From positions 7,627 to 54,441 of the forward strand of contig CAZCOL010000009.1 in the NCBI GenBank assembly GCA_964500545.1: a DNA stretch of 46,815 nt. Reading direction: 5' to 3'. This document shows, piece by piece, positions 41,159 through 44,092 of this stretch; the first letter of the stretch is position 1, and each line of letters begins with the position of its first letter. This DNA is from an uncultured Ferruginibacter sp. GTDB taxonomy: Bacteria > Bacteroidota > Bacteroidia > Chitinophagales > Chitinophagaceae. The notes beneath the pieces are model-generated. The model had not been told where the DNA came from and ran no database searches. It saw only the letters and a program-made list of their open reading frames with translations. The position numbers and the translations under genes are program-made.

Positions 41159-41866
41159 TTAGTGTTCAAAAATTTTCGCTACTCCAAAAGCGGCGGCTGC
41201 AGCCAATGCGCCTATGAGCATAACTCTAAGTGCTCCAAACCATGGATTGATGCCGGTAATTTTGCTTTTGAAATAACCGAAAGTAAACAAACAAGCCAAT
41301 GTGGCTATCACTGAGTATTTTAATGCTTCAGTTGAATCGCTTATAAAAAAATAGGGGCTCAAAGGAATGATCCCGCCTGCAATGTATGATAAACCAATAT
41401 TTAAAGCACTTTTTGCAGCTCTTTTAGGGTCAGGTTTTTCCAATCCCAATTCATATTTCATCATGAATTCAACCCATTTGTCTTTGTCTTTTGAAATTTC
41501 TTCAGTAGCACTTTTTTGCAATGCTTCACTTAAGCCTAATCCTGCAAAGAATTCTTTTGTTTCTTCAATTTCTTTATGCCTCAGGTTTTCCACTTCATCA
41601 TACTCCCTTTTGACTTCACTGTCGTAATGATCCTGCTCAGTTTTCCCTGCAAGATAACCCCCAAGACCCATGGCTATACTGCCTGCTGCAATTTCAGCAA
41701 TGCCTGCAATGACAACTATGCTGCTGCTGTCAACGGCACCGCTTAAACCGGCAGCTAAGGCAAAAGGAACGGTTAGCCCGTCACTCATACCGATGACAAC
41801 ATCCCTTAAAAGATCTGAGCTTTTTAAATGAATTTCCTGATGGTCGTGGTGAAGATGCGTGTCCAT
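41159..41866 (-). CDS. VIT1/CCC1 family iron/manganese transporter
   Basis: RDVVIGMSDGL, AEI.AG.I.MGLGGYL, Glu-rich cytosolic domain, MM.YELG. Confidence 0.92.
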   Translation of the reverse strand: MDTHLHHDHQEIHLKSSDLLRDVVIGMSDGLTVPFALAAGLSGAVDSSSIVVIAGIAEIAAGSIAMGLGGYLAGKTEQDHYDSEVKREYDEVENLRHKEIEETKEFFAGLGLSEALQKSATEEISKDKDKWVEFMMKYELGLEKPDPKRAAKSALNIGLSYIAGGIIPLSPYFFISDSTEALKYSVIATLACLFTFGYFKSKITGINPWFGALRVMLIGALAAAAAFGVAKIFEH

Positions 41867-41870
41867 ATAG

Positions 41871-43109
41871 TTATGATTGTAAAATAGAAAGTGATTGTTT
41901 GATGATTGAAATGCTGTCCAAAATTTGATCTCTATTAATAATTAATGGGGGTGCGAATCTTATCTTATCTCCATGAGTAGGTTTTGCAAGCAAACCCTGT
42001 TCTTTTAATTCGATACAAAGATCCCATGCAGCTTCCGGGTTTTTGTGTTCTATCACAATAGCATTCAAAAGACCACGGCCACGGGTACACGAAATAAATG
42101 AAGAATTTATTTTTTGCAATTCATTTCTGAATAACAAGCCCATTTCAGCTGCATTTTCTGCCATTTTTTCATCTTTTAAAACCTGTAAAGCAGTCATTGC
42201 CACTTTGCATGCCAATGGATTCCCACCATAGGTGCTTCCGTGCTCTCCGGGTTTTATGGTCAACATGATTTCATCATTACACAATACTGCACTAATTGGC
42301 AGAGTACCTCCACTTAAGGCTTTGCCCAATATCAATATATCCGGCTTAATATTTTCATGGTCGCAGGCCAGCATCTTGCCTGTTCTGGCAAGCCCCGTCT
42401 GTATTTCATCTGCAATCATCAATACATTGTATTCACTGCAAAGTTTTCGGACTCCGGCTATATAGCCATCATCAGGAACAACCACACCCGCCTCGCCTTG
42501 AATGGGCTCAAACATAAAAGCAGCAACATTTTTGTCCTGCATTGATTTTTCCAAAGTCATCAAATCATTATAGGGGACGATTTCAAATCCTGGCATAAAA
42601 GGTCCAAAATTATTGTAGCTGCTAGGGTCTGTCGATGAGGAGATTGCCGCCATTGTTCTTCCCCAGAAATTTCCTTCTGCAAAAAGAATTTTCGCCTTAT
42701 TTTTTTCGATGCCTTTGACTTGGTAGCCCCATCTTCTTGCGAGTTTGATGGCTGTTTCACCCCCCTCAACACCCGTGTTCATTGGAAGAACCTTGTCATA
42801 TCCAAAATAAGAAGTAATGTACTGCTCATATTCACCCAACAAGTTATTGTGAAATGCCCTGGATGTTAATGTTAGAATTTCCGATTGGGATTTCAATGCA
42901 TCAATTATTTTGGGGTGGCAGTGTCCTTGATTGACTGCAGAATATCCGCTTAAAAAATCGTAGTATCTTTTATCATCTACATCCCATAGGTGAACGCCCA
43001 ATCCCTTTTTTAGTACAACGGGCAATGGATGATAATTGTGAGCACCATATTTATCTTCCAGTTCTAAATAATAGCTAGTTTTTTCAGACAAAAAATTGAC
43101 AGTGTGCAT
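41871..43109 (-). CDS. rocD: Ornithine--oxo-acid transaminase
   Basis: [64 protein letters not shown]. Confidence 0.96.
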
Positions 43110-43260
43110 ATTGAAAAATTAAATGATCAGTAAAAAGGATGAGATATTGGTATAGGAAACATTTCCCTCATTTAAATGAGGGCTAAAAAAACTATCCTCG
43201 ATGATTTAGTAAATCAAGGTTATTCAACAGAAAGTATATGATTGAATTGCTCATTTGTAT
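43110..43260 (-). promoter_or_regulatory. Structured ~150-nt 5' leader of rocD; candidate attenuator
   Basis: Hairpins at 43222-43247 and 43196-43219, U7 tract at 43185-43191, perfect 18-nt palindrome at 43165-43182, C/U-rich stretch at about 43131-43160. Confidence 0.55.
43192..43254 (-). CDS. Putative leader peptide MSNSIIYFLLNNLDLLNHRG upstream of rocD
   Basis: ATG at 43254, 20 sense codons, TAG at 43194-43192; starts 9 nt after a consensus -7 element; below the ORF-track length cutoff. Confidence 0.5.
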   Translation of the reverse strand: MSNSIIYFLLNNLDLLNHRG

Positions 43261-43263
43261 TTT

Positions 43264-43271
43264 CAAATATA
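43264..43271 (-). promoter_or_regulatory. -7 promoter element (TATATTTG) for the leader-rocD transcript
   Basis: Exact TAnnTTTG match just after the ispE stop codon. Confidence 0.6.
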
Positions 43272-43276
43272 GGCAC

Positions 43277-44092
43277 TTAAACCCATTTCATAAAGTAAGA
43301 ATTTGGGAAATTTAATTCAGGTACAATGTTTTTTTCAAAGATGCCATAGACTGTACTGCCGGTACCGCTCATGGAAGCGAAAGTTGCCCCTGAATGATAC
43401 AAGGCATCTTTAATGTTTTTGATTGCAGGAAATGCAGCAAATACCGGTATTTCAAAATCATTTAGTATGTATTTTTTCCATTCTTCCACCGGAATGTTTG
43501 CAATGTCTTTGAGGGAATCTGATTTTTTATGAATGTTCAAATTTGAAAAAGCCCATCCGGTATTTATATGAATACCCGGATTGATCAATACAATTTTATA
43601 ATCTTTCATTTTTAAAGAAACAGGCTCGAGCAATTCTCCTCTTCCTGTTGCAAAAGACGTTTCATTGTTAATAAAAAAAGGGCAATCGCTTCCCAGTTTT
43701 AAAGCGTATTCTATCAAATCGCTATTACTAAGCCCAATACCAAATAGTTTGTTCAATAATTTAAGTGTAAATGCTCCATCTGCTGAACCTCCACCCAAAC
43801 CTGCACCCGATGGAATGTTTTTATGCAAATGAATTTTTACGGCATGAAGTTCAGGGTAATCTTTTTTTAATAATTCAAACGCTTTGATAATTAAGTTATC
43901 AGATTCCTTTCCCGGAATAATATTTCCTGTTTGATTGAATTGAATAGTTTCTCCTGTATCGGCTTGTAAGACTTCCAAAGCATCTTTTATATCAATGGGA
44001 TGAAATATTGTTTGAAGATTGTGAAAACCGTCCGGTCTTTTGCCGGTAATATTCAACCCTATGTTAATCTTGGCATTTGGAAAACAAACCAT
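43277..44092 (-). CDS. ispE: 4-(cytidine 5'-diphospho)-2-C-methyl-D-erythritol kinase
   Basis: AKINIGL, R.DGFH.L.T, K.IP.GAGLGGGSAD, LGSDCPFF, MSGTGS. Confidence 0.96.
   Translation of the reverse strand: MVCFPNAKINIGLNITGKRPDGFHNLQTIFHPIDIKDALEVLQADTGETIQFNQTGNIIPGKESDNLIIKAFELLKKDYPELHAVKIHLHKNIPSGAGLGGGSADGAFTLKLLNKLFGIGLSNSDLIEYALKLGSDCPFFINNETSFATGRGELLEPVSLKMKDYKIVLINPGIHINTGWAFSNLNIHKKSDSLKDIANIPVEEWKKYILNDFEIPVFAAFPAIKNIKDALYHSGATFASMSGTGSTVYGIFEKNIVPELNFPNSYFMKWV

What the first reader, a model, noticed from the sequence alone, without database searches (positions are those of the whole stretch)
43192..43254. Unannotated leader peptide upstream of ornithine aminotransferase: candidate ornithine/arginine-sensing ribosome-arrest system
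Seen: on the minus strand a consensus promoter element (TATATTTG, 43271-43264) is followed 9 nt later by a 20-codon ORF, MSNSIIYFLLNNLDLLNHRG-TAG. It ends 82 nt before the rocD ATG, and its only Arg is a penultimate CGA codon. Most other promoter-to-ATG distances here are about 15-60 nt, so a ~150-nt leader needs explaining. Established: in gammaproteobacteria the arrest peptide SpeFL (starts MENNS, ends ...FFNAR-stop) senses ornithine in the ribosome exit tunnel and induces ornithine decarboxylase speF by blocking Rho termination; TnaC works similarly for tryptophan. Inference: this ORF (MSNS...LLNHRG-stop) precedes a different ornithine-catabolic gene and could be a Bacteroidota counterpart. 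I know of no description of one. Caveats: short ORFs arise by chance, the likeness to SpeFL is only a few residues, and the mRNA would be nearly leaderless.
Basis: partly seen in the sequence, partly recalled or inferred. Interest (0 to 1): 0.82.

Follow-up and report, generated by a model that had tools for sequence, protein, structure and literature searches.

The report
Conserved leader peptide before ornithine aminotransferase
A tiny unannotated gene in front of the ornithine-degrading gene rocD is conserved as a peptide across most sampled members of one large bacterial family, often with a likely AUC start instead of AUG, and is likely an undescribed ribosome-stalling sensor that switches the enzyme on.

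Summary
The 20-codon ORF is real and conserved as protein. In rocD-anchored sets it occurs in 92 of 129 same-family (Chitinophagaceae) loci from 84 of 112 genera, in 19 of 19 same-genus loci and in 0 of 39 other-family loci. The core is F-L-x-x-N-L-D-[FL]-L-[ND]-H. Changes are mostly synonymous, three Leu columns never become Phe, and a stop follows within six codons in 109 of 112. About half the copies lack AUG. These have ATC/ATT/ATA at one fixed column, where the open frame begins, so initiation at AUC is likely. Where the uORF is missing, 31 of 37 rocD genes start right behind a promoter motif, so the leader behaves as a unit. The likeness to SpeFL fails: MSNS occurs in 1 of 112, the HIRRXXH sensor is absent, and 53 of 112 have no Arg. 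Best reading: a new TnaC/SpeFL-like arrest peptide that likely senses ornithine and blocks Rho termination. Translation, stalling, ligand and output are untested, and proline feedback is a real rival. No Pfam, NCBIfam, Rfam, PDB or literature match was found.

The parts
43277..44092 (-). ispE, upstream neighbour; its stop is 5 nt before the promoter element
   Evidence: (TIGR00154 202.9 bits, cut-off 138.7)
43264..43271 (-). Bacteroidota -7 promoter element TATATTTG; predicted transcription start about 43259-43258
   Evidence: 4-5 nt spacing to the start site in Flavobacterium johnsoniae (PMC6847099, passages); a matching motif was found in 197 of 215 copies (loose score)
43258..43260 (-). in-frame ATA at the family's start column (-13 relative to the first Asn of NLD); possible alternative start
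43192..43254 (-). leader ORF (proposed name rocDL), 20 codons, MSNSIIYFLLNNLDLLNHRG-TAG
43237..43239 (-). conserved ATA (Ile) codon preceded by C, at -6/-7; role unexplained
43201..43233 (-). conserved peptide core F-L-x-x-N-L-D-[FL]-L-[ND]-H (codons 8-18)
43192..43200 (-). tail CGA-GGA-TAG; in the family the codon after His is mostly rare CGA, a Pro codon or a stop
   Evidence: CGA is 8% of Arg codons in this genome
43165..43182 (-). hairpin CCCTCATTTAAATGAGGG without a U tract; possible polymerase pause; not conserved in sequence or position
43115..43159 (-). pyrimidine-rich, G-poor tract (C 22%, G 2%, T 51%); only 1.3% of 752 gene upstream windows of this genome are as pyrimidine-rich; candidate Rho loading or termination zone
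41871..43109 (-). rocD, ornithine--oxo-acid transaminase, the predicted regulated gene
41159..41866 (-). VIT1-family transporter gene 4 nt behind rocD, probably on the same transcript
   Evidence: PF01988, 236.8 bits

Best explanation
This is a leader peptide conserved at the amino-acid level in front of rocD across Chitinophagaceae, which likely stalls its own ribosome when ornithine is plentiful and would thereby let transcription run into rocD by keeping Rho off the leader. Shown by sequence comparison: coding constraint on FLxxNLD[FL]L[ND]H, a stop just behind it, one copy per matching genome always before rocD, and loss together with the whole leader. Inferred steps: (1) transcription starts 4-5 nt behind the -7 element; (2) ribosomes start 0-15 nt from the 5' end, at AUG or, in about half the copies, weakly at AUC/AUU/AUA; (3) with little ligand the peptide is released and the C>G leader is open to Rho, which terminates before or early in rocD; (4) with ligand the core in the exit tunnel arrests the ribosome at or just after the His, helped by a slow next step (stop, rare CGA or Pro), and masks the leader. 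My odds: translated cis-regulatory uORF about 0.9; acts by nascent-peptide arrest about 0.7; given arrest, ligand ornithine 0.5, proline 0.2, arginine or citrulline 0.2, other 0.1; output through Rho about 0.6.
For: Coding constraint in 112 rocD-anchored copies: mean entropy 0.54, 0.09 and 1.32 bits at codon positions 1, 2 and 3; 379 synonymous against 107 non-synonymous departures from the modal codon; Leu, Leu, Asp, Leu, His invariant in 112 of 112; 72 TTN codons in the three Leu columns, none TTY. Stop within 6 codons of His in 109 of 112 against 20 and 20 in the other frames; no stop in the 6 codons before the core in 112 of 112, against stops in 48 and 37 in the other frames. Gene link: 111 of 120 loci from a GTDB-wide pattern scan lie directly before rocD; each of the 17 same-family genomes that matched in the phylum scan had one match, at rocD. 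Start: in 110 copies with no AUG the codon six upstream of the ATA is ATC 78, ATT 24, ATA 5, TTG 1, GTG 1, GTC 1; 0 of 110 have in-frame stops below that column and 12 of 110 in the five codons above it; A peaks 12-10 nt upstream as it does before this genome's gene starts. Module: 31 of 37 uORF-less rocD genes have a promoter motif 3-7 nt before the ATG, against 3 of 92. Conservation is confined to the last 11 residues before a slow step, as in arrest peptides (established knowledge). Rho is present in 5 of 5 genomes tested, this one included; the uORF is C 26%, G 10%, and rut sites are C>G, weakly structured and 60-90 nt (PMC12360218, passages). All 40 uORF-bearing genomes tested have an arginine-to-ornithine route. 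This genome has an arginase-like gene and P5C dehydrogenase but no proA or proC was found, so its RocD looks catabolic.
Against: No ribosome, reporter or transcript-end data exist here; the only RNA evidence is one 195-nt contig at depth 2.7 over the spacer and the rocD start, which does not cover the uORF. Nothing in the sequence names the ligand. The arginine-to-ornithine route is also present in 18 of 20 uORF-less genomes. proC is present in 38 of 40 uORF-bearing against 9 of 20 uORF-less genomes and proA in only 11 of 40, which fits proline synthesis as well. The most G-poor tract lies 30-60 nt behind the stop, beyond a stalled ribosome's footprint, and the short copies (13-18 codons) offer little RNA for Rho. 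About 25 non-AUG copies have ATC 3-5 nt behind the promoter motif, that is at the 5' end, where initiation normally needs AUG (recalled). The AAA upstream of ATC may be the transcription start rather than a translation signal. The genomes are related, so counts are not independent.
Confidence: 0.4

Rival explanations
1. Same translated arrest peptide, but it reports proline (or P5C) status: RocD plus ProC make proline from arginine, and the leader turns rocD down when proline is high or up when Pro-tRNA is short.
For: proC in 38 of 40 uORF-bearing against 9 of 20 uORF-less genomes; proA found in only 11 of 40; the codon after His is Pro in 32 of 112.
Against: This genome carries the uORF but no proC was found (97% complete). 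80 of 112 copies have no Pro after His, and proA is no rarer in Pro-tail genomes (4 of 20) than in others (7 of 20) in any clear way. Many uORF-less genomes are small and may have lost both independently.
Confidence: 0.17
2. Arrest peptide sensing arginine or citrulline, or sensing ornithine but acting without Rho (through translation initiation or mRNA stability of rocD).
For: The uORF goes with the ctlX-type gene (32 of 40 against 2 of 20). A stalled ribosome lowers the computed opening energy of the rocD start by more than 2 kcal/mol in 34 of 213 copies.
Against: The median opening energy barely moves (3.9 to 3.4 kcal/mol; 2.5 to 3.0 in this window), so there is no general sequestration switch. 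This genome has no ctlX-type hit.
Confidence: 0.23
3. Classical attenuator: ribosomes pause at hungry Arg or Pro codons and decide between a terminator and an antiterminator; the peptide sequence itself does not matter.
For: Rare CGA in 38 and Pro in 32 of 112 after His; terminator-like stems in 35 of 215 spacers against 6-14 in three block shuffles.
Against: No run of control codons; 27 of 112 copies have neither Arg nor Pro from codon -6 to the stop; 180 of 215 spacers have no terminator-like site, this window included; the invariant residues would be unexplained.
Confidence: 0.07
4. The small peptide is released and works in trans, for example on RocD or the membrane.
For: Amino-acid conservation alone does not prove action in cis; the core is amphipathic by inspection.
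Against: Variable N-terminus and length (13-26 codons), weak start codons, fixed place in the rocD leader, and loss together with the leader while rocD stays.
Confidence: 0.07
5. Not translated: a conserved RNA hairpin or a palindromic protein-binding site that only looks like codons.
For: This window can form a 7-bp stem over the core; half the copies lack AUG.
Against: Only 17 of 112 copies form all 7 pairs, with A-C mismatches in 39 and 28 at two positions and no compensation; no pairing covariation among 94 aligned copies; whole-leader fold z = -1.6; no Rfam match near a gathering score; strict codon pattern and frame.
Confidence: 0.04

Closest known systems
SpeFL (orf34), ornithine-sensing arrest peptide of speF-potE in gammaproteobacteria (bioRxiv 10.1101/604074; parts 1-2 of 5 read)
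   Same: Short uORF before an ornithine-consuming enzyme; rare codons inside; C>G-rich ORF followed by a hairpin; Asn and basic residues near the stop; predicted Rho-linked induction.
   Different: No sequence relationship found: 13-26 codons against 34, no HIRRXXH sensor, no RR, no Phe-rich effector run; different gene (rocD) and phylum; near-leaderless and often non-AUG start; tail after the core varies.
TnaC, tryptophan-sensing arrest peptide of tnaCAB (PMC8429421, PMC10941005; passages read)
   Same: About 20-codon leader before an amino-acid catabolic enzyme; essential-looking Asp a few codons before the stop; functional part confined to the last dozen residues.
   Different: No Trp four residues before the Asp (0 of 112) and no Pro before the stop (0 of 112); the G-poor tract does not start right after the stop.
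rbfL of Staphylococcus aureus (PMC13009471; passages read) and classical amino-acid attenuators (recalled)
   Same: A rare Arg codon in a short uORF; the same paper documents AUA and AUU starts used for regulation.
   Different: rbfL overlaps the downstream ribosome-binding site and depends on codons; here the stop lies about 80 nt from rocD, Arg is dispensable and the amino acids are constrained.

Membership tests
SpeFL | HIRRXXH sensor motif with invariant Arg12-Arg13 | tested here: not met
   HIRR 0 of 112, RR 0 of 112; motif
SpeFL | Phe-rich effector core (F20, F26, F28, F30, F31) in a 34-residue peptide | tested here: not met
   core is FLxxNLD[FL]L[ND]H, length 13-26
SpeFL | upstream of speF in gammaproteobacteria | tested here: not met
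   upstream of rocD in Chitinophagaceae
SpeFL | ornithine-dependent ribosome arrest | not testable with these tools
   needs toeprinting
TnaC | W12, D16, I19, P24 spacing | tested here: not met
   W four before D 0 of 112; P before stop 0 of 112
TnaC / SpeFL / any curated leader-peptide model | match to a Pfam or NCBIfam profile | tested here: not met
   13 of the 140 copies of 20 or more codons (window included) scanned: no Pfam hit; one irrelevant NCBIfam hit at 13.3 bits, cut-off 25; such short queries are insensitive
metabolite-sensing arrest peptides (as a kind) | short uORF before a metabolic gene with amino-acid constraint on its C-terminal part | tested here: met
metabolite-sensing arrest peptides (as a kind) | Rho and a rut-like leader | tested here: inconclusive
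   rho present; C>G composition; no termination site mapped
metabolite-sensing arrest peptides (as a kind) | translation and ligand-dependent stalling | not testable with these tools
   no Ribo-seq or in vitro data
classical attenuators | run of control codons plus conserved terminator/antiterminator | tested here: not met
Rfam cis-regulatory RNAs | match at gathering score; compensatory pairing | tested here: not met
   best of 7 weak matches 18.6 bits against a gathering score of 95

The most novel reading that the evidence does not exclude
A metabolite-sensing ribosome-arrest peptide from Bacteroidota, unrelated to SpeFL: an 11-residue core that is a second, independently evolved ornithine sensor, arrests regardless of whether the next codon is a stop, Arg or Pro, and is translated from an AUC codon at or near the very 5' end of the mRNA, with the start toggling between AUG and AUC many times to set basal expression. 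It would be one of several unrelated leader peptides with which Chitinophagaceae control arginine catabolism.
Probability: 0.25. Interest if true: 0.87.

Novelty: new variant of a known kind. Interest (0 to 1): 0.7.

Why it matters
Only a few bacterial nascent peptides are known to sense a metabolite directly, and those I could find described come from Proteobacteria. A family with over 200 natural variants and an invariant 11-residue core gives a ready-made mutational map for asking how the ribosome tunnel recognises an amino acid, and whether ornithine sensing evolved twice. The AUC/AUU start column, often at the mRNA's 5' end, bears on how Bacteroidota ribosomes, which use no Shine-Dalgarno pairing, choose start codons; annotation pipelines miss such ORFs. 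Cultured carriers exist (records named Niastella yeongjuensis, Lacibacter cauensis, Pseudoflavitalea rhizosphaerae, Longitalea arenae, Flavihumibacter sp., Terrimonas sp.), so it is directly testable.

Tried and rejected
Rfam scan: 7 weak matches, none near a gathering score. The sigma-70 promoter scan does not cover this phylum's promoters; its terminator scan found none. RNA hairpin over the core, ATC-to-GAT pairing and any long-range covariation: rejected. Conserved intrinsic terminator: 70 of 215 spacers have a hairpin of -8 kcal/mol or better, with scattered positions; 35 of 215 are terminator-like. Start-site sequestration switch: not general. ATA at -7/-6 as the start: less likely than the column six codons upstream, because the frame between them is never interrupted and the ATA is kept in 17 of 41 long-AUG copies; not excluded. 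Phylum-wide spread: a looser pattern matched 61 of 401 genomes, 17 in the family; the 47 matches outside it (all fetched or given as loci) are not before rocD and are about as frequent as the reversed-pattern control. PDB sequence search: 0. Exact look-up of 8 peptides among about 15 billion proteins: 0 of 8. RNA runs: 4 riverine metatranscriptomes with small shares (0.05-0.19), contigs only; one exact 195-nt contig covers 42998-43192; the uORF itself is not covered, which proves nothing. Literature: 10 searches found no description; the motif strings gave 0 papers; subscription journals and preprint supplements were not searched and could list this uORF. Earlier scan findings: none on this element. 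No structure or complex prediction was run, as the peptide is under the size limits.

Full report
1. Observation. The minus strand reads ispE stop (43277), 5 nt, TATATTTG (43271-43264), 9 nt, ATG (43254), 20 codons, TAG (43194-43192), 82 nt, rocD ATG (43109). The flanking genes are rocD (TIGR01885, 662 bits, cut-off 378) and ispE; a VIT1-family gene follows rocD after 4 nt. The leader length alone is modest evidence: 62 of 445 genes of this genome with an intergenic promoter motif lie more than 120 nt from it (crude gene calls).

2. Conservation, anchored on rocD and not on the peptide. Of 24 same-genus genomes, 19 have rocD and all 19 carry the element. Of 160 same-family genomes, 154 have rocD; I examined 129 of them (29 given as loci, 100 fetched from the top, bottom and part of the middle of the ranking; 25 not examined) and 92 carry it, in 84 of 112 genera. 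The split is clean: peptide scores are 31 or more against 19 or less, and a nucleotide profile scores members 23 or more (members were in the profile) and non-members -5 or less, so no frame-broken look-alikes were discarded. In 39 rocD loci of other families, the best profile score is 1.6 bits against a member minimum of 26.8. A GTDB-wide scan with a stricter pattern stopped at 120 loci; 111 lie directly before rocD, one is cut by its contig end, and 8 lack rocD and look like chance. The 80 record titles shown are mostly Chitinophagaceae. The family name comes from those titles; the nearest RocD among them (83%) is labelled Ferruginibacter sp. (L050).

3. It is constrained as protein. In the 112 rocD-anchored copies (window included) the core is [FIV]-L-x-x-N-L-D-[FLYW]-L-[NDF]-H, with L, L, D, L and H invariant. 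Entropy is 0.54, 0.09 and 1.32 bits at the three codon positions, and departures from the modal codon are 379 synonymous to 107 non-synonymous. The Leu columns use all six codons and none of 72 TTN codons is TTY. A stop follows His within six codons in 109 of 112 (20 and 20 in the other frames) and none of 112 has a stop in the six codons before the core (48 and 37 in the other frames). The hairpin this window can form over the core is complete in only 17 of 112 and shows no compensation. The profile is unique in this genome.

4. The start. Among 215 distinct copies, 52 have an ATG at -10 to -5, 41 at -16 to -11 (this window), 110 have no ATG but an ATA at -7/-6, and 12 fit none of these. In the rocD-anchored subset the split is 60 ATG, 45 non-AUG and 7 other. 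In the 110, the codon six upstream of the ATA is one letter from ATG in 109 (ATC 78, ATT 24, ATA 5, TTG 1, GTG 1). The frame is never interrupted below it (0 of 110, against 25 and 17 in the other frames) but is just above it (12 of 110). A is enriched 12-10 nt upstream (0.74, 0.86, 0.71), where this genome's genes also peak; A-12 and A-13 stimulate initiation in F. johnsoniae (PMC6847099, passages). The promoter-to-start gap is bimodal, about 3-10 or 13-23 nt, for AUG and non-AUG copies alike. [quoted passage not shown] On a FastTree of 115 RocD proteins (only loci holding at least 330 residues; support values not evaluated), AUG and non-AUG states change 17 times among 107 labelled tips (35 when shuffled), so the switch is recurrent. 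The C-ATA at -7/-6 stays unexplained: ATA is 25% of Ile codons here, so not very rare.

5. A module. Of 37 family loci without the uORF, 31 have a promoter motif 3-7 nt before the rocD ATG, against 3 of 92 with it. The uORF and its spacer (median 86 nt from His to ATG, no frame preference) are therefore present or absent together, as expected of a cis-regulatory leader replaced by a constitutive promoter (inference).

6. Output. There is no conserved terminator (35 of 215 terminator-like, 6-14 in shuffles; none here) and no general occlusion of the rocD start. The uORF is C 26% and G 10%, and the last 40 nt before rocD are G 6% and T 50%; this window's tract is among the top 1.3% of 752 upstream windows for pyrimidines. 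Rho is present, and rut sites are C>G, weakly structured regions (PMC12360218, passages). Rho-dependent attenuation is thus the best guess by elimination and analogy. Its weakness is geometric: the most G-poor tract lies beyond a stalled ribosome's footprint, so the uORF itself would have to be the masked site, as in speFL.

7. Ligand. After His comes Arg in 40 (CGA in 38), Pro in 32, stop in 29 and another residue in 11, which suggests a slow step after an invariant core rather than a control codon; 27 of 112 have neither Arg nor Pro. This genome has an arginase-like gene (213 bits, just under the 227.6 cut-off), P5C dehydrogenase and proline dehydrogenase, and no proA, proC or ctlX-type gene was found (97% complete), so RocD here would feed ornithine to glutamate. 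In 60 genomes I chose by uORF state (20 Pro-tail, 20 Arg/stop-tail, 20 without), an arginine-to-ornithine route is present in 40 of 40 against 18 of 20, the ctlX type in 32 of 40 against 2 of 20, proC in 38 of 40 against 9 of 20 and proA in 11 of 40 against 4 of 20. CtlX as a citrulline-to-ornithine enzyme is itself putative (PMC9007349, passages). These genomes are related and differ in size, so the associations are leads only. Substrate induction by ornithine is the most likely reading and proline feedback the main rival.

8. Comparison. SpeFL needs HIRRXXH and a Phe core (bioRxiv 10.1101/604074, parts 1-2 of 5 read); TnaC needs W12, D16, I19 and P24 (PMC10941005 and PMC8429421, passages). 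Both tests fail, so this is not a member of either family, though it likely works like them. No Pfam, NCBIfam, Rfam, PDB or protein-collection entry was found, and ten paper searches found no description (listings only, apart from the papers cited). Other agents of this scan report unrelated conserved uORFs before polyamine and amino-acid genes (unchecked), so the class is becoming less rare, but none is this element.

9. Verdict. A real, apparently undescribed leader-peptide family of Chitinophagaceae; function inferred, not shown. New variant of a known kind; interest 0.7.

Noticed in passing
L384, L387, L388, L389, L393 (variant L386); leaders of the arginine-deiminase-like + ctlX operon: A second, unrelated candidate leader peptide ending L-P-[VA]-N-[FY]-Y-I-P-[DG]-stop, 43-77 nt before the operon, in 5 of 27 loci examined plus one variant. 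Not in this window's genome.
   Followed up: partly
L394, L398, L383/L397: A third candidate leader ORF before the same operon, ending H-F-A-W-M-Y-R-G-L-N-P-M-P-D-H-stop in 3 of 27; two copies have Met, five codons, then I-S-F-L, with an ATA for the Ile in the copy read as DNA, like the first half of the rocD uORF.
   Followed up: partly
L404, L407, L408, L409: A fourth candidate leader ORF before a divergent arginine-deiminase-like gene, M-F-x-x-K-H ... Y-F-L-N-L-I ... P-D-Y-stop, in 4 of 27. All three types end in P-[DG] plus zero or one residue.
   Followed up: partly
window 41159-41866 (-): VIT1-family iron/manganese-type transporter gene 4 nt behind rocD; a homolog lies in the same locus in 15 of 20 genus-level loci, so the leader may control it too.
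   Followed up: partly
L180-L277, uORF-less family members: 31 of 37 rocD genes without the uORF look leaderless, with the ATG mostly 4 nt behind the -7 element; 66 of 445 genes of this genome have a promoter motif within 10 nt of the ATG, more than reported for other Bacteroidota.
   Followed up: no
60 family genomes: Arginase and the arginine-deiminase + ctlX pair are almost mutually exclusive in Chitinophagaceae; proA is missing in 45 of 60.
   Followed up: no
window 43277-43271: No terminator separates ispE from the leader, so ispE-operon transcripts could also run through the uORF.
   Followed up: no
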